NCBI RefSeq assembly: GCF_029023825.1
Contig: NZ_CP118957.1
Span: forward strand, 1,571,794 to 1,635,793
Length of the DNA stretch: 64,000 nucleotides
Source: Enterococcus saccharolyticus subsp. saccharolyticus
GTDB lineage: Bacteria > Bacillota > Bacilli > Lactobacillales > Enterococcaceae
Direction: 5' to 3'
Below the pieces are notes generated by a model that saw only the letters and a list, made by a program, of their open reading frames with translations, did no database searches and had not been told where the DNA came from. Below, one piece after another: positions 1 to 33,975 of the stretch (its first letter is position 1; every line of letters starts with the position of its first letter). Made by a program: the position numbers and the translations under genes.

Positions 1-127
1 CTCCTTTTATGAAAGCATAAATGTTTTATACAACAGTAAATACTTAAGATAGTTCAGAACAATATTTTCTATATTATATAAAAAACAAACAATTTTCTCT
101 TTTTAAAGGAAACTTAATAAATAATGA

Positions 128-157
128 ACGTTCAGGACAAGATATTCAACGTTTGGG
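128..157 (+). promoter_or_regulatory. Two 9-bp direct repeats ACGTTCAGG (128-136) and ACGTTTGGG (149-157) separated by 12 bp; putative LytTR-type response-regulator binding site. An extended -10 TGgTATATA at 186-194 follows with no good -35.
   Basis: Read directly from the sequence. The same repeat, spacing and distance to the extended -10 recur at 2425-2491. Confidence 0.55.
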
Positions 158-221
158 CTATAAATGGTTTCTAGGGTTTATTTTGTGGTATATATTATTC
201 ATTAGTTCAAGGAGGTTTTAT

Positions 222-713
222 ATGAAAAAATTATTATTGTTATTTGCTTTTACTACTTTCACTGTTTTTGGTGTGCTATCTGAGGTAAATGCAGAAGAAC
301 TATCTGTAGATTTAAACAGCAGTTATGCTTCTACAGATATAAAAAATGATGAAGGTGAAATTATTGGTCAATTGGTAGTTTCTGAAGAAATTCCATCTAC
401 GAGTTTTTCTACCAGAAGTTATATTGATCAAGCATTGTCAAATAAAACATTTGACGTTAAGTTTATTGGTGTAACAGCAAATTTTGGATACAAAGTAACT
501 GTAAAGAACAAAAAAATTACAAATGCTTACGGGGCTTGGTCAAACGGTATTATTTGGAGTACTGACTTAGGAAAACCTTATTTTACCTCAACTACATCAG
601 GCGTAAAAGGTAAAACCAGTTTCGGTATCAGCGATTTTAGTTTCAATACAACAGTTAGGCTCAAAGGAAATATTGTTGACAATCGACTAAAAACATACCT
701 TTCATTTTCATAA
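222..713 (+). CDS. Secreted protein of unknown function, 163 aa, with a Sec-type signal peptide (MKKLLLLFAFTTFTVFGVLSEVNA).
   Basis: ATG at 222 preceded by a strong RBS AAGGAGG (210-215). The track ORF begins at an upstream TTG (153) that lacks an RBS. N-terminal hydrophobic signal with an AEE cleavage-like site. Confidence 0.7.
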   Translation: MKKLLLLFAFTTFTVFGVLSEVNAEELSVDLNSSYASTDIKNDEGEIIGQLVVSEEIPSTSFSTRSYIDQALSNKTFDVKFIGVTANFGYKVTVKNKKITNAYGAWSNGIIWSTDLGKPYFTSTTSGVKGKTSFGISDFSFNTTVRLKGNIVDNRLKTYLSFS

Positions 714-734
714 CTAGAAATTGGTGGTGTTAAA

Positions 735-902
735 ATGATTTATGCTTACATTACAGGGCTGATTATAATTCTTATTCTAGTCTTCGTATCATTTAATTTA
801 AAACAGAAACATCAAAATAAAGGATTCACAGTGCTATTTTATCTAGTTTTAGTTGTCTTGGTAGCCTATTTGTTACCATCAGTTTCTTATCTTTTTCTAT
901 AA
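735..902 (+). CDS. Small hydrophobic protein, 55 aa, two predicted TM helices, co-transcribed with 222..713.
   Basis: ATG at 735 after GGTGGTG, 21 bp downstream of the preceding stop. Sequence MIYAYITGLIIILILVFVSF...VLFYLVLVVLVAYLL is strongly hydrophobic. A terminator follows immediately. Confidence 0.45.
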   Translation: MIYAYITGLIIILILVFVSFNLKQKHQNKGFTVLFYLVLVVLVAYLLPSVSYLFL

Positions 903-911
903 TATAAACAA

Positions 912-946
912 CCTCCACGCCTTTATCATCAGCGTGGGGGTTTTTA
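912..946. terminator. Bidirectional rho-independent terminator: hairpin CCTCCACGC...GCGTGGGGG followed by a T-run.
   Basis: GC-rich inverted repeat, then TTTTT on the plus strand and an A-run before it for the minus strand. Sits between the plus-strand operon and the convergent SH3 gene. Confidence 0.7.
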
Positions 947-973
947 TAAGCAAAACACAACACGGTTATTTTA

Positions 974-1216
974 TTAAACTACTGCGACATAACGCACTTT
1001 ACCACTACCACTAATATATTTAAGCCATACATACCCATCCGCAATCACTTTTCCTATATAAGTTATAGTATCACCTGAATGATACACAGCTACCACACTA
1101 TGCCCCAATCCAGGTTTTGTTCTTACGTTGGTAGCCACTGTAAATTTGTAGGTGCCTTTATTAGGTAGATTTTCACCTTTTAACAATGGTCTGCTAGGTG
1201 TGTTTGTCTTTGACAC
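974..1216 (-). CDS. Stand-alone SH3_5 (bacterial SH3) cell-wall-binding domain protein, 80 aa; likely remnant of a phage endolysin C-terminus.
   Basis: The motif NVRTKPG...YHSGDTITY.GKVIADGYVWLKYISGSGKVRYVAV matches the SH3_5 pattern of Firmicute phage lysin C-terminal domains. No catalytic domain is present upstream. Confidence 0.6.
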   Translation of the reverse strand: MSKTNTPSRPLLKGENLPNKGTYKFTVATNVRTKPGLGHSVVAVYHSGDTITYIGKVIADGYVWLKYISGSGKVRYVAVV

Positions 1217-1375
1217 ACCTTTATTAACAATTTTTCATAAATATACATAATGTATATTGAACTGTATTGCTGCGTCTTCCATAGAACTTTTTTCAGTGTA
1301 CCTATTATAGCAAATTTTCTGAAAAAACGTGAAGTATTATTATTCATTTTTACTAAAAAAATAAGAATTGTAGTA

Positions 1376-1405
1376 TTGACAAATATCCAAATAAAAAGTA
1401 AGATT
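1376..1405 (+). promoter_or_regulatory. Sigma-A-type promoter for the tRNA: TTGACA (1376-1381), 18-bp spacer, TAAGAT (1400-1405).
   Basis: Consensus -35 and a near-consensus -10, about 14 nt upstream of the mature tRNA 5-prime end. Confidence 0.5.
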
Positions 1406-1418
1406 TTAACTGTTATTG

Positions 1419-1501
1419 CGGACGTGTTGGAATGGCAGACAAGCATGATTGAGGGTCATGTGAGCGTACGCTCGTGTGGGTTCAAGTCCCATCGTCCGCA
1501 T
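1419..1501 (+). tRNA. tRNA-Leu, anticodon GAG, class II with a long variable arm.
   Basis: Acceptor stem GCGGACG/CGTCCGC. D-stem TTG/CAA. Anticodon stem CATGA/TCATG with loop TTGAGGG, giving anticodon GAG and G37. A 15-nt variable arm, T-arm GTGGG-TTCAAGT-CCCAT and discriminator A. No encoded CCA. Confidence 0.85.
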
Positions 1502-1622: not shown

Positions 1623-2148
1623 CTATCTTATTTTCTTGTAGTTGTCGTAAACATAAACAAACATACCTTGACCATAATAATCATCGCTACTAGATTCTTC
1701 TCTCATAAAAGTAAAGCCATTTTTTCTAACACTCGCTGTGATCCCAAATTTCCTTTTAATACTCTTCCCTGTAAATACATTATTTTCAATTCTTCTGAAA
1801 CAAATTCCACCATTGCTTGAACTGCTTCTGTAGCATATCCTTGGTTACAATAAGCTTCGCAAATACTGTAACCAATCTCTATTTGATCTGTTATTCCATC
1901 AACAACATTCATTCCAATATTCCCAATTAATAGTTTATTTTCCTTACAAAAAATCCCTAAAACATATGGCAGCTTCTTCTTATTCACACAATCAGAAAAA
2001 AATCAATTGCGTGAGCCGCTTCATCTAAATCTTGGTAAACTTTATTAGGTATCCAATGTTTTAAGGAGGGGTCACGATGATTTTGATAAAATGGGACGAC
2101 TTCTTTTTTCGTTAATTGCTTTAACACTAAGCGTTTAGAGACAAGCAT
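1623..2148 (-). pseudogene. GNAT-family N-acetyltransferase (RimL/RimJ-like, intact length about 174 aa) disrupted by two frameshifts, each inside a homopolymer run.
   Basis: Frame 1: ATG at 2148 with RBS GGAGG, reading MLVSKRLVLKQLTKKEVVPFYQNHRDPSLKHWIPNKVYQDLDEAAHAIDFF, then stop at 1984-1986 just after a T7 run (A7 on the plus strand, 1996-2002). Frame 2: the track ORF 1703..1987, ...GYATEAVQAMVEF...QRVLEKMALLL. Inserting one A into the A6 run at 1720-1725 restores LEKNGFTFMREESSSDDYYGQGMFVYVYDNYKKIR, which ends at 1623. All three segments look like one GNAT fold. Confidence 0.6.
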
Positions 2149-2424: not shown

Positions 2425-2454
2425 ACGTTCAGGCATAAATTTACGACGTTTACG
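2425..2454 (+). promoter_or_regulatory. Second copy of the direct-repeat site: ACGTTCAGG (2425-2433), 12 bp, ACGTTTACG (2446-2454). An extended -10 TGgTAATCT at 2483-2491 follows.
   Basis: Left repeat identical to site 1, same 12-bp spacer, and the same 31-bp gap between the right repeat and the -10 hexamer. Confidence 0.55.
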
Positions 2455-2601
2455 ACATAAATAGTTTTAAGACTCCAAAACATGGTAATCTGAACAGTAA
2501 GATACCTTTATTAAGCATTCGATAACATTTACACTATACCTAACCTCTCACATTTCGAAAAATACTCCACTATTATCCTAATAAAGAAACGAGGTTTTTA
2601 A

Positions 2602-3444
2602 ATGAAAAAAATTTTTATAAGTAGTTTGTTAATAACTTTTGCTACCGTTTTCTTGGTCGGTTGCGATAAAAACGAAACAGTGAACAACTCCGCCACAAAT
2701 TCAGCCATTTCTGTAAGTGATCATTCAAGTGAAGAATCAACTACTACAGAATCAATTACAGCAACAACCATGAATTTGGAAAACAAGACGATCGAAACAA
2801 CTATTCAAAAATCAACTGTACAATCAACCGTTGCATCTTCAACGATTGAACCAACACTTGCTGATTTTGTCGGTGGCTGGGGACTTCCTCAAACAGATAT
2901 ATTATTTTTCATAGCGAATGACGGATCGTTTGCTACTGCCACTGCTGGTCCTAATGATACTCCCCCATCTTATCCGAATTATTCATTTCGTTTTAATACA
3001 GATGGCAAACCAGTAATGACCATGACAAGCGACACTGGAACAACAGATTTTATTTTAGAACCCGATGGTACGTTAACTATCGATGGTAACACTTATATTT
3101 ATCTAGGAAATTATACTCGTGAGGGATTTACAGCTGCCAAAATTGCCGAATACCAAGCAGCTGAACAAGAACATGCAGCTACTGCAGACTCCACTTCTTT
3201 TAATGAAGTGCCGATGGATTCGTTTGGTGCAATTGAGTCAGCCAAAAGCTATCTGGCTGGTGGTGGTAACACGACGCAATTTGATAATTACACATTTACT
3301 GATACTAATGGTTTAATGACTGATGAATCTGGTAGATCCTATTATTCCATTATGATACGTCAAAATGGTGGAAATGGGATGAAATCGATGGCTATTGGTA
3401 TCATCAACGTTTATACTGATAACGGTGAATGTGTTTGGCAATAA
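2602..3444 (+). CDS. Lipoprotein of unknown function, 280 aa, with a Ser/Thr-rich linker and a C-terminal globular domain.
   Basis: ATG with RBS GAGGT. Signal peptide ending in lipobox FLVGC (Cys21). Low-complexity T/S-rich segment from about residue 30 to 95. Confidence 0.75.
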   Translation: MKKIFISSLLITFATVFLVGCDKNETVNNSATNSAISVSDHSSEESTTTESITATTMNLENKTIETTIQKSTVQSTVASSTIEPTLADFVGGWGLPQTDILFFIANDGSFATATAGPNDTPPSYPNYSFRFNTDGKPVMTMTSDTGTTDFILEPDGTLTIDGNTYIYLGNYTREGFTAAKIAEYQAAEQEHAATADSTSFNEVPMDSFGAIESAKSYLAGGGNTTQFDNYTFTDTNGLMTDESGRSYYSIMIRQNGGNGMKSMAIGIINVYTDNGECVWQ

Positions 3445-3447
3445 ACT

Positions 3448-3489
3448 AAAACAAGACTTCCAATGTAAACTGGAAGTCTTGTTTTTTTC
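3448..3489 (+). terminator. Rho-independent terminator of the lipoprotein gene: ACAAGACTTCCA...TGGAAGTCTTGT followed by TTTTTTT.
   Basis: Perfect 12-bp stem followed by a T-run. Confidence 0.8.
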
Positions 3490-33189: not shown

Positions 33190-33975
33190 CCTCATTAGGT
33201 TCAAGAATATTTCCAAAGATAGGTCTTAAGACCGATAATCAAAACCTCCAGTGTGAACTGGAGGTTTGTTCTTCGGCTGAAAGCCTCTTTTACCGGCCAT
33301 AGCCTAAAAGGCTTCCTGAACGGTTTCCCACTTGCACCACTTTTACTCACTGATCCTTAAAGAATCTCTTTCACTTCTTCTTGTTTTTTTGTCCTGTAAA
33401 CGGATCATACTCTTCAAACAATGTTAGCTGATCTGCTACATAATCTTCTTGTACTTGATTCCGAATGTATTCTTCGATCTGCTTCTTATTTCTTCCTACT
33501 GTATCCACGTAATACCCTCTACACCAAAATTTTCGGTTCCCATACCGATACTTCAAATTCGCATGTCTGTCAAAAATCATTAAGCTACTCTTGCCTTTTA
33601 AATAGCCTACAAAACCTGATACACTATATTTTGGTGGGATACTTACGAGTAAGTGGATATGATCTTTGCACGCATTTGCTTCGATGATCTCCACTCCTTT
33701 TCTTTCACATAATGTTCGGATGATCTCACCTATACTTTTCTTATACTTTCCATAAATCACTTGTCGTCTATATTTTGGTGCAAAAACAATGTGGTACTTA
33801 CATTTCCATGTCGTGTGTGATAAACTTTCATTAGCCTTTTTCATAATAGGCACCTCCTAAATTGATGGATGTGGTGGTCGGGAAACCAATTTCATCTTAT
33901 CATTTTTGGGAGGCTTTTTTAATACCTCGCTGGAAGCTCTTTGGAACCCCCGGCTTAGCCAGGGGTTTTCAATAC
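33190..33975 (-). mobile_element. IS200/IS605-family insertion sequence (IS200 group, tnpA only) with subterminal hairpins. Boundaries are approximate.
   Basis: Y1 HUH transposase gene flanked by structured ends: a perfect hairpin AAACCTCCAGT-GTGAA-ACTGGAGGTTT at 33242-33268, and AACCCC...GGGGTT at 33945-33967. Confidence 0.6.
33371..33844 (-). CDS. tnpA: IS200/IS605-family transposase TnpA (Y1 HUH), 157 aa.
   Basis: HUH motif (DHIHLLVSIP) and catalytic Tyr region (WCRGYYVDTVG). Start at MKKANES with RBS AGGAGGTG. Confidence 0.9.
   Translation of the reverse strand: MKKANESLSHTTWKCKYHIVFAPKYRRQVIYGKYKKSIGEIIRTLCERKGVEIIEANACKDHIHLLVSIPPKYSVSGFVGYLKGKSSLMIFDRHANLKYRYGNRKFWCRGYYVDTVGRNKKQIEEYIRNQVQEDYVADQLTLFEEYDPFTGQKNKKK

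What the first reader, a model, noticed from the sequence alone, without database searches (positions are those of the whole stretch)
2425..2491. Second copy of the same regulatory site with identical geometry, upstream of the lipoprotein gene
ACGTTCAGG (2425-2433), a 12-bp spacer, ACGTTTACG (2446-2454), then 31 bp to the extended -10 TGgTAATCT (2483-2491). The left repeat is 9/9 identical to site 1. The spacer length and the distance to the -10 are identical to the nucleotide. Two unrelated exported-protein genes 2.3 kb apart sharing this exact promoter architecture argues strongly for a common dedicated regulator: a small regulon of secreted or surface proteins flanking the tRNA-Leu locus. 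The lipoprotein transcript would carry a roughly 100-nt leader.
Basis: seen in the sequence. Interest (0 to 1): 0.7.

Follow-up and report, generated by a model that had tools for sequence, protein, structure and literature searches.

The report
AgrA-type (LytTR) activator site, lipoprotein promoter
The repeat pair upstream of the lipoprotein gene is a real binding site of the well-known LytTR/AgrA type, one of at least four identically built promoters in Enterococcus saccharolyticus, and its likely regulator is an uncharacterised AgrA/AgrC-like signalling pair about 1 Mb away.

Summary
ACGTTCAGG-N12-ACGTTTACG lies at 2425-2454. TG follows 28 bp later and the -10 hexamer TAATCT 31 bp later, which is the same geometry as site 1 (128-194). 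Chance expectation for one exact copy in the window is about 1e-4.

The architecture is the textbook operator of LytTR-family response regulators (AgrA, PlnC, ComE, HdrR). It has two 9-bp direct repeats fitting WMMGTTNRK, a 12-bp spacer, a position just upstream of a poor -35, and an extended -10.

The organism is Enterococcus saccharolyticus. The window holds no LytTR gene. The same chromosome encodes an AgrA-like regulator and an AgrC-like kinase about 0.96 Mb away. Two more sites with the identical left repeat, spacer length and 31-bp distance flank those two genes.

In the sister species Ca. E. willemsii the orthologous pair is flanked by three such sites. In other Firmicutes the same motif sits directly upstream of agrB next to agrC/agrA.

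Binding and co-regulation are inferred, not shown. This is a new member of a known kind, of modest interest.

The parts
2425..2433 (+). Distal (left) 9-bp direct repeat ACGTTCAGG of site 2. With the preceding base it reads GACGTTCAG, which matches 7 of the 8 specified positions of the LytTR consensus WMMGTTNRK.
   Evidence: consensus from PMC8826819 and PMC5600425
2434..2445 (+). 12-bp A+T-rich spacer CATAAATTTACG. It puts the two repeats 21 bp apart, start to start. It is 11/12 identical to the spacer of site B beside the regulator gene.
2446..2454 (+). Proximal (right) 9-bp direct repeat ACGTTTACG. It is identical to the right repeat of site A beside the kinase gene.
2461..2466 (+). Weak -35-like hexamer ATAGTT, 6 bp after the right repeat and 19 bp before the -10 hexamer. 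The aligned positions read ATGGTT in site 1, TTGGTT in site B and TTGTAT in site A.
   Evidence: register alignment; the consensus sigma-70 scan does not call this promoter, as expected for an activator-dependent promoter; inference
2483..2491 (+). Extended -10 element TGgTAATCT (TG at 2483-2484, hexamer TAATCT at 2486-2491)
2498..2601 (+). Predicted 5' leader of about 104 nt with the ribosome-binding site GAGG at 2591-2594. It has no significant structure and no Rfam family.
   Evidence: the transcription start is inferred from the -10 position
2602..3444 (+). Target gene: a 280-aa DUF4950 lipoprotein (signal peptide ending in LVGC). It has only three database homologues; the one close match (98% identical) comes from other E. 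saccharolyticus strains.
3448..3485 (.). 17-bp-stem hairpin flanked by A and T runs, after the lipoprotein gene. It is a likely bidirectional terminator.
128..194 (+). Site 1, the sister promoter: ACGTTCAGG (128-136), 12-bp spacer, ACGTTTGGG (149-157), 28 bp, TGGTATATA (186-194)
222..902 (+). Site 1 targets: a 163-aa secreted DUF5626 protein (222-713) and a 55-aa two-helix membrane ORF (735-902). A hairpin with a T run follows at 912-945.
   Evidence: the terminator is read from the sequence

Best explanation
The element at 2425-2491 is an activator-dependent promoter of the LytTR/AgrA class.

Proposed mechanism (inferred):
- A phosphorylated LytTR-family response regulator binds as a dimer.
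- One monomer sits on each 9-bp direct repeat. The repeats are 21 bp apart, so both lie on the same face of the helix.
- The site lies just upstream of a poor -35 with an over-long 19-bp spacer.
- Binding allows sigma-A RNA polymerase to use the extended -10 TGgTAATCT.
- The DUF4950 lipoprotein gene is then transcribed from about 2498.

The most likely regulator is the AgrA-like protein of E. saccharolyticus (EOT25950.1 / OJG91050.1, 246 aa, REC + LytTR). It is paired with an adjacent AgrC-like HATPase_c_5 kinase, about 0.96 Mb away on the chromosome.

The regulon has at least four promoters of identical geometry:
- this one;
- site 1, which drives the DUF5626 protein and a 55-aa membrane ORF;
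- site A, immediately after the kinase gene, which drives a 70-aa Sec-secreted protein and a 53-aa membrane ORF;
- site B, upstream of the regulator gene and pointing away from it, which drives a transcript of about 65 nt ending in a strong terminator.

Shown: the sequences, their geometry, the presence and location of the regulator, and the association of the motif with agr-type loci. Inferred: binding, activation, the signal, and co-expression.
For: 1. Architecture. Two 9-bp direct repeats with a 12-bp spacer lie just upstream of -35/-10. This equals the published arrangement for PlnC/PlnD (consensus TACGTTAAT, 12-bp spacer essential; PMC2714321), for AgrA (WMMGTTNRK, repeats 12-13 bp apart, upstream of -35; PMC5600425, PMC8826819), for CbnR (PMC1634752), and for HdrR and other LytTR regulatory systems (9-bp repeats, 12-bp spacer, 4-11 bp upstream of -35, extended -10; PMC6193735).

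2. Four sites in one genome. CP180195.1 holds both window sites (L067). It also holds site A (L202 12196+) and site B (L202 9640-). All four have ACGTTCAGG, N12, ACGTTTnnG and 31 bp to a TAnnnT hexamer.

3. Location of sites A and B. They flank a REC+LytTR regulator and a HATPase_c_5 kinase. The regulator's best solved relatives are ComE (E = 9e-24) and the AgrA LytTR domain (E = 1.4e-20).

4. Sister species. The orthologue in Ca. E. willemsii (69% identity) is flanked by three sites of the same class.

5. Other Firmicutes. A scan of species-representative genomes with the degenerate pattern returned sites directly upstream of AgrB genes (Pfam AgrB), with AgrC-like and AgrA-like genes adjacent. 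An AgrA-like regulator lies within 8 kb in 12 of the 120 loci returned (13 hits at E <= 1e-5, one of them marginal at 5.8e-06). I estimate that about 1 would be expected by chance.

6. Control. The neighbouring lrgAB promoter, the expected target of the other LytTR regulator LytT, carries different repeats (ATGTCACGA-N12-ATGTCGTGA) and no ACGTT site.

7. Promoter strength. The consensus promoter scan does not call either window promoter, which fits dependence on an activator.
Against: - No binding or expression data exist.
- The regulator is not in the window, and the rest of the genome could not be searched. Another LytTR protein with the same specificity cannot be excluded.
- Neither site A nor site B is placed to drive the regulator or kinase genes. 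Both genes have their own consensus-like promoters. The positive autoregulation typical of agr and of LytTR regulatory systems is therefore not evident.
- No AgrB or AgrD gene lies within 10 kb of the regulator (Pfam lists), so the signal is unknown.
- Weak consensus-like promoters also exist nearer the lipoprotein gene (2547-2576, 9/12) and could give basal expression.
- Within-species diversity is too low to show selective conservation of the repeats.
Confidence: 0.75

Rival explanations
1. The sites are LytTR-type operators, but they are bound by a different LytTR protein of E. saccharolyticus. Candidates are LytT of the LytST system or an unseen bacteriocin-type regulator elsewhere in the genome.
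For: LytST is encoded 3 kb from the AgrA-like gene. Only about 92 kb of the 2.64-Mb genome could be examined. LytTR half-site consensuses overlap broadly (PMC8826819).
Against: The lrgAB promoter next to lytST has its own distinct 21-bp-periodic repeats and no ACGTT site. Sites of the ACGTTYNNG class flank the AgrA-like gene in two Enterococcus species. They precede agrB next to agrCA in other Firmicutes.
Confidence: 0.12
2. The resemblance comes from shared ancestry of promoter DNA. In this view one promoter cassette was copied around the genome and onto the tRNA-Leu islet, and no present-day regulatory constraint acts on it.
For: Spacers fall into two similar pairs: site 2 and site B are 11/12 identical, and site 1 and site A are 9/12. 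A truncated copy of the site 1 promoter with a single repeat lies just upstream of the window (L001 7270-7320). Site 1 is on a strain-variable islet.
Against: Outside the motif columns the four promoters are 11-14/28 identical, which is near background for A+T-rich DNA. The left repeat is 9/9 in all four, and the distances are exact. Repeat types and spacer types are recombined among the sites. The motif tracks LytTR two-component genes across species.
Confidence: 0.06
3. The repeats are bound by the RNPP-family (HTH + TPR) regulator encoded 2-3 kb upstream of the window, beside a 59-aa ORF. This would make a local peptide-sensing circuit at the tRNA-Leu locus.
For: An RNPP_C/HTH regulator and a small divergent ORF lie at L001 4421-5552, close to both sites.
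Against: Regulators of the RNPP family (PlcR, Rgg, PrgX) use inverted-repeat operators (my knowledge), not direct repeats 21 bp apart. The two further sites lie 0.96 Mb away beside a LytTR gene. The 59-aa product does not read like an exported peptide precursor (my reading of its translation from the sequence).
Confidence: 0.03
4. The match between the two sites is a chance similarity between two A+T-rich intergenic regions.
For: With 3 mismatches allowed, the pattern count is not above the shuffles (5 observed against a mean of 1.9; 5 of 100 shuffles reach 5).
Against: Two perfect 15-base matches are seen against about 1e-4 expected. Both have TGGTA at the same distance and lie upstream of genes in the right orientation. 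Two more copies lie beside a LytTR regulator.
Confidence: 0.01

Closest known systems
Staphylococcus aureus agr P2/P3 promoters (AgrA boxes)
   Same: Both have imperfect 9-bp direct repeats fitting (TA)(AC)(CA)GTTN(AG)(TG), 12-13 bp apart and upstream of -35 (PMC5600425, PMC8826819). The candidate regulator's DNA-binding domain matches the AgrA LytTR domain at E = 1.4e-20. The kinase has the AgrC-type HATPase_c_5 domain. One site appears to drive a short non-coding transcript next to the regulator genes, which recalls P3 and RNAIII.
   Different: No agrB or agrD lies next to the regulator. The gene order is regulator then kinase, each with its own promoter. No site is placed to autoregulate them. 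The half-site is ACGTTYRNG rather than ACAGTTAAG (the S. aureus half-site is quoted from my knowledge). The targets are a lipoprotein and small secreted proteins of unknown function.
Lactobacillus plantarum pln regulon (PlnC/PlnD boxes) and related class II bacteriocin three-component systems (CbnSKR, enterocin A)
   Same: Both have two 9-10-bp direct repeats with a 12-bp A+T-rich spacer directly upstream of -35/-10, repeated at several operons of one regulon. The pln consensus TACGTTAAT shares the ACGTT core with ACGTTCAGG (PMC2714321, PMC1634752).
   Different: No double-glycine inducer peptide gene, no peptidase-containing ABC exporter and no recognisable bacteriocin or immunity genes were found at the sites or within 10 kb of the regulator. 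The small gene next to the kinase has a Sec-type signal peptide.
Clostridioides difficile RgaS-RgaR (AgrC/VirS-like kinase and VirR-like LytTR regulator without a cognate AgrBD)
   Same: A LytTR two-component system is not linked to its own agrBD. It directly activates a handful of scattered promoters through conserved direct repeats, including hypothetical-protein operons and a small RNA (PMC10327067).
   Different: RgaS and RgaR are unlinked genes and use VirR-type boxes. One RgaR target is agrB1D1. Here the kinase and regulator are adjacent, the boxes are of the ACGTT type, and no agrBD target was seen.
Streptococcus mutans LytTR regulatory systems (HdrRM, BrsRM)
   Same: Both have 9-bp direct repeats with a 12-bp spacer, 4-11 bp upstream of -35, and an extended -10 (PMC6193735).
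   Different: Those regulators lack a receiver domain and pair with a membrane inhibitor, not a kinase. Their own operons carry the repeats. Here the regulator has a receiver domain and a histidine kinase partner.
Enterococcus faecalis Fsr (FsrABDC)
   Same: It is an enterococcal agr-type quorum-sensing system with an AgrA-like LytTR regulator and few direct targets, which are secreted proteins (PMC3673130).
   Different: Fsr includes FsrB and FsrD, and its targets lie adjacent to the locus. The E. saccharolyticus pair lacks B and D nearby, and two of its likely targets are about 1 Mb away.

Membership tests
LytTR-family (AgrA/PlnC/ComE-type) operator-promoter | Pair of imperfect 9-bp direct repeats matching WMMGTTNRK | tested here: met
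   Counting the 8 specified positions, site 2 left GACGTTCAG scores 7/8 and site 2 right GACGTTTAC scores 6/8. Site 1 left AACGTTCAG and right AACGTTTGG each score 8/8 (consensus from PMC8826819 and PMC5600425).
LytTR-family (AgrA/PlnC/ComE-type) operator-promoter | Repeats separated by 12 (11-13) bp, giving a 21-bp periodicity | tested here: met
   The spacer is exactly 12 bp in both window sites and in sites A and B. The published requirement is in PMC2714321, PMC5600425 and PMC6193735.
LytTR-family (AgrA/PlnC/ComE-type) operator-promoter | Position immediately upstream of a weak -35, with a usable -10 | tested here: met
   The right repeat ends 6 bp before a TTG-like or ATG-like hexamer and 31 bp before TAnnnT. 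TG lies at -15/-14 in three of the four sites. The promoter is not called by the consensus sigma-70 scan.
LytTR-family (AgrA/PlnC/ComE-type) operator-promoter | A LytTR-domain regulator is encoded in the same genome, and the same boxes recur at its locus or at several operons | tested here: met
   P0156 (REC + LytTR) lies on CP180195.1 with sites A and B flanking it and its kinase. The same chromosome holds the window locus (L067).
LytTR-family (AgrA/PlnC/ComE-type) operator-promoter | Regulator binds the repeats and activates transcription | not testable with these tools
   This needs gel-shift or footprint assays and expression analysis of a mutant.
Canonical agr quorum-sensing locus (agrBDCA) | AgrA-like regulator and AgrC-like HATPase_c_5 kinase | tested here: met
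Canonical agr quorum-sensing locus (agrBDCA) | AgrB peptidase and AgrD propeptide encoded with the kinase and regulator | tested here: not met
   No PF04647 (AgrB) appears among the called genes within 10 kb on either side in E. saccharolyticus or Ca. E. willemsii. My own AgrB profile also found nothing, but it had no independent positive control. The rest of the genome was not searched.
Canonical agr quorum-sensing locus (agrBDCA) | Positive autoregulation through boxes upstream of the operon (P2) | tested here: not met
   Site B points away from the regulator gene and site A lies downstream of the kinase gene. The regulator and kinase genes have their own promoters.
Class II bacteriocin three-component regulon (inducer peptide, kinase, regulator) | Double-glycine inducer peptide gene upstream of the kinase; bacteriocin, immunity and ABC-exporter operons carrying the same boxes | tested here: not met
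   The only small gene at the locus has a Sec-type signal peptide and lies downstream of the kinase. The box-controlled genes found are DUF4950, DUF5626 and small membrane ORFs.

The most novel reading that the evidence does not exclude
Enterococci of the saccharolyticus group, with homologues in the avium, malodoratus and gilvus groups, may carry an uncharacterised AgrC/AgrA-type two-component system that has lost, or never had, a linked AgrBD.

This system does not visibly autoregulate. It would control a compact regulon made of a transcript of about 65 nt beside the regulator gene and several species-specific secreted or surface proteins.

One of those proteins (DUF5626) is encoded on a strain-variable islet inserted at tRNA-Leu, and its relatives in other species are cargo at the end of Tcp-type conjugative elements. 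That would mean newly acquired DNA has been wired into the host signalling circuit.

The signal might be the conserved Sec-secreted protein, about 48 aa when mature, encoded right after the kinase under one of the boxes. That would be a feedback loop through the signal rather than through the sensor.
Probability: 0.3. Interest if true: 0.6.

Novelty: new member of a known kind. Interest (0 to 1): 0.38.

Why it matters
It links two orphan genes of unknown function, a DUF4950 lipoprotein and a DUF5626 secreted protein, to a concrete and testable regulator. It also defines the operator (ACGTTCAGG-N12-ACGTTTnnG, 31 bp from the -10) of an enterococcal AgrCA-like system that, as far as my searches show, has not been studied. 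It gives an example of an islet-borne gene carrying the host regulator's box. The cis-element itself is textbook, so the value lies in annotation and in opening a small regulon to experiment, not in a new principle.

Tried and rejected
- Free alignment of the two promoter regions locked onto the start codons and hid the motif. I replaced it with a fixed-register comparison.
- I looked for conservation in homologues. The DUF4950 homologues (59% and 53% identical) and the DUF5626 homologues in other enterococci have ordinary promoters without the repeats. They are not orthologous contexts, so this neither supports nor refutes the hypothesis.
- A literature search for the string ACGTTCAGG returned only unrelated primer and eukaryotic hits.
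- A viral-contig scan with the exact pattern gave 48 scattered single hits, consistent with chance. I did not follow them up.
The regulator was instead reached by way of the Ca. E. willemsii hit, a homologue search and a cluster listing.
- I tested the leader-RNA idea. The 104-nt lipoprotein leader has no significant fold and no Rfam match.
- I considered the RNPP regulator upstream of the window and rejected it (see the rival explanations).
- My home-made AgrB profile found nothing in the E. saccharolyticus loci but had no independent positive control. I rely on the precomputed Pfam lists instead.
- Within-species alignments show the sites invariant, but diversity is too low to be informative.

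Full report
**Observation**

- ACGTTCAGG lies at 2425-2433.
- A 12-bp spacer, CATAAATTTACG, follows.
- ACGTTTACG lies at 2446-2454.
- After 28 bp comes TGgTAATCT at 2483-2491.

Site 1 (128-194) has the same left repeat, the same 12-bp spacer length and the same 28/31-bp distance.

The pattern ACGTTCAGG-N12-ACGTTT has exactly two perfect matches in the 64-kb window, both on the + strand. From base composition I expect about 1e-4.

Both sites precede + strand genes for exported proteins.
- Site 1 precedes a DUF5626 protein with a Sec signal peptide (222-713), followed by a 55-aa membrane ORF (735-902).
- Site 2 precedes a DUF4950 lipoprotein with the lipobox LVGC (2602-3444).

Outside the motif columns the two promoters are near background similarity, 5/12 in the spacer and 14/28 between the right repeat and the TG. 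They are not a recent duplicate.

**What kind of element it is**

Two 9-bp direct repeats with a 12-bp spacer lie just upstream of a poor -35, and an extended -10 follows. This is the published arrangement for LytTR-family activators.
- PlnC/PlnD: consensus TACGTTAAT, with both repeats and the 12-bp spacer length shown to be essential (PMC2714321).
- AgrA: consensus (TA)(AC)(CA)GTTN(AG)(TG), repeats 12-13 bp apart, upstream of -35 (PMC5600425, PMC8826819).
- CbnR (PMC1634752).
- HdrR and other LytTR regulatory systems: 9-bp repeats, 12-bp spacer, 4-11 bp upstream of -35, extended -10 (PMC6193735).

Read with one preceding base and counting the 8 specified positions, the four window half-sites match the consensus at 8/8, 8/8, 7/8 and 6/8.

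The right repeat ends 6 bp before a TTG- or ATG-like hexamer. That hexamer lies 19 bp from the -10, which is an over-long spacer. The consensus sigma-70 scan does not call either promoter, as expected if an activator is needed.

**Organism and context**

The window matches Enterococcus saccharolyticus. It corresponds to GCA_001886235.1, contig JXLD01000007. The same locus is present in the complete genome CP180195.1.

A profile built from 120 AgrA-like regulators finds no LytTR protein in the window or in the 10 kb upstream.

The lipoprotein gene is nearly confined to this species. It has three homologues among 5.8 billion proteins.

DUF5626 homologues in other enterococci sit at the end of Tcp-type conjugative elements. 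They lack the repeats.

Some E. saccharolyticus strains lack a segment of about 1.8 kb that carries site 1, the DUF5626 gene, the small membrane ORF and an SH3_5 fragment. In the strains that have it, it is bounded by a 212-bp duplication (90% identical) of the tRNA-Leu promoter and 5' end. Site 1 is therefore on an accessory islet, whereas site 2 is present in every strain fetched.

**Finding the regulator**

One scan of species-representative genomes was allowed. I used the pattern ACGTTYNNG-N12-ACGTTYNNG-N27-29-TGNTA.

Many Firmicutes hits are promoters of the same design. Several genomes carry multiple copies.

In at least six loci the motif sits directly upstream of an AgrB-like gene: L079, L082, L086, L097, L146 and L181. 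Three of these were confirmed with Pfam AgrB. In five of the six (all but L079), AgrC-like and AgrA-like genes lie adjacent.

An AgrA-like regulator lies within 8 kb of the motif in 12 of the 120 loci returned (13 hits at E <= 1e-5, one of them marginal). I estimate that roughly one would be expected by chance.

One hit was in Ca. Enterococcus willemsii, beside a HATPase_c_5 kinase and a REC+LytTR regulator. Three sites of the class flank that gene pair.

A homologue search with that regulator and a cluster listing identified the E. saccharolyticus orthologue. It is P0156 (EOT25950.1 / OJG91050.1), 69% identical to the Ca. E. willemsii protein. It is present on CP180195.1 at about 1.695 Mb. 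The window locus is at about 0.735 Mb on the same chromosome.

**Decisive comparison**

Two more sites flank the regulator (L202 10001-10741) and the kinase (L202 10880-12190).

- Site A (L202 12196, + strand) reads ACGTTCAGG-N12-ACGTTTACG-N28-TAGTATAAT. It lies upstream of a 70-aa Sec-secreted protein and a 53-aa membrane ORF. Both are conserved in Ca. E. willemsii.
- Site B (L202 9640, - strand) reads ACGTTCAGG-N12-ACGTTTGGG-N28-TGTTAGAAT. It points away from the regulator gene into a transcript of about 65 nt. That transcript ends in a perfect 20-bp hairpin with a U run (z = -3.8). It has no Rfam match.

All four E. saccharolyticus sites share three features:
- a 9/9 identical left repeat;
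- ACGTTT..G in the right repeat;
- exact 12-bp and 31-bp distances.

The columns between these features vary.

The regulator's closest solved relatives are ComE (E = 9e-24) and the AgrA LytTR domain (E = 1.4e-20).

As a control, the neighbouring lrgAB promoter is the expected target of the other LytTR regulator, LytT. It has different 21-bp-periodic repeats (ATGTCACGA / ATGTCGTGA) and no ACGTT site.

**Mechanism, with status**

Shown:
- the sequence elements and their geometry;
- a cognate-type regulator and kinase in the same genome;
- sites of the same class at that locus in two species;
- the association of the motif class with agr-type loci across Firmicutes.

Inferred:
- the phosphorylated AgrA-like regulator binds the two repeats as a dimer and activates the weak promoter;
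- transcription starts near 2498, giving a leader of about 104 nt that is unstructured and has no Rfam match;
- the four promoters are co-regulated.

Unknown:
- the signal, because no AgrB or AgrD lies within 10 kb of the regulator;
- whether the two-component genes are autoregulated, because no site is placed to drive them.

**Rivals**

- Another LytTR protein with the same specificity. This cannot be excluded without the whole genome. It is disfavoured by the lrgAB control and by the cross-species association.
- Copied promoter DNA without present function. This is disfavoured by the conservation pattern.
- The nearby RNPP regulator. It has the wrong operator type and does not explain the distant sites.
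- Chance. This is excluded.

**Novelty**

The cis-element is a standard LytTR operator. What is new:
- its assignment to two genes of unknown function;
- the definition of the box of an apparently unstudied enterococcal AgrCA-like system without a linked AgrBD;
- the fact that one target sits on a strain-variable islet.

I rate it a new member of a known kind, of modest interest.

Noticed in passing
window 1-1440 (L001 7029-8840): The DUF5626 gene, the 55-aa membrane ORF and a truncated SH3_5 ORF (974-1216, minus strand) form an islet of about 1.8 kb. Some E. saccharolyticus strains (L060-L063) lack it. It is bounded by a 212-bp duplication (90% identical) of the tRNA-Leu promoter and 5' end. 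It carries a second, 80%-identical tRNA-Leu-like copy just upstream of the window. DUF5626 homologues elsewhere lie at the end of Tcp-type conjugative elements.
   Followed up: partly
L001 7270-7372 (about 30-130 bp upstream of window position 1): There is a truncated copy of the site 1 promoter with a single repeat (GCGTTCAGG) fused to the same core promoter (GGTTTCTAGGGTTTATTTTGTGGTATAT). About 40 nt and a strong terminator hairpin follow (fold z = -3.7). It looks like a 21-bp deletion derivative and would give only a very short transcript.
   Followed up: partly
L202 9440-9640, minus strand (E. saccharolyticus CP180195.1, beside the AgrA-like gene): Site B drives a predicted transcript of about 65 nt that is little more than a perfect 20-bp hairpin with a U run. 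It has no Rfam match. It is a candidate regulator-dependent small RNA, and it could also encode a leaderless 19-aa ORF.
   Followed up: partly
L202 12294-12664 and L196 10823-11196: A 70/71-aa Sec-secreted protein (mature about 48 aa, conserved KNYPP motif) and a 53-aa membrane ORF lie directly after the two-component genes, under one of the boxes. They are conserved between E. saccharolyticus and Ca. E. willemsii and have no Pfam family. The secreted protein is a candidate signal or effector.
   Followed up: partly
L202 13819-13980 (lrgAB promoter): Distinct 21-bp-periodic direct repeats, ATGTCACGA-N12-ATGTCGTGA, lie upstream of lrgA next to lytST. This is probably the LytT operator.
   Followed up: no
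L196 8134-8220, minus strand (Ca. E. willemsii): A Guanidine-I riboswitch (Rfam RF00442, 73.5 bits) lies upstream of an SfLAP gene and two SMR genes. It is downstream of one of the LytTR-type sites, so an activator site and a riboswitch may act in series.
   Followed up: partly
window 1703-2148, minus strand: The GNAT acetyltransferase gene divergent from site 2 is split into ORFs of 54 and 94 aa. Other strains have 54 + 121 aa, or 69, 73 or 48 aa. It is probably a decaying gene.
   Followed up: no
window 33371-33853, minus strand: A solitary IS200-like Y1 transposase gene (Pfam Y1_Tnp, E = 2.7e-41) lies among housekeeping genes. An IS605 OrfB HTH fragment also lies near lytS in L202.
   Followed up: partly
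L001 4421-5552 (2-3 kb upstream of the window): An RNPP-family regulator (HTH + TPR + RNPP_C, 275 aa) has a divergent 59-aa ORF beside it. The function is unknown, and there is no evident link to the repeats.
   Followed up: no
L130 and L179 (Tetragenococcus sp. MAG): Two promoters belong to the same class. In L130 the left repeat is identical and the spacer 11/12 identical to window site 1 (ACGTTCAGGACAAGATATTGA...). It lies upstream of an 83-aa membrane ORF. The L179 promoter lies upstream of a 78-aa exported ORF.
   Followed up: no
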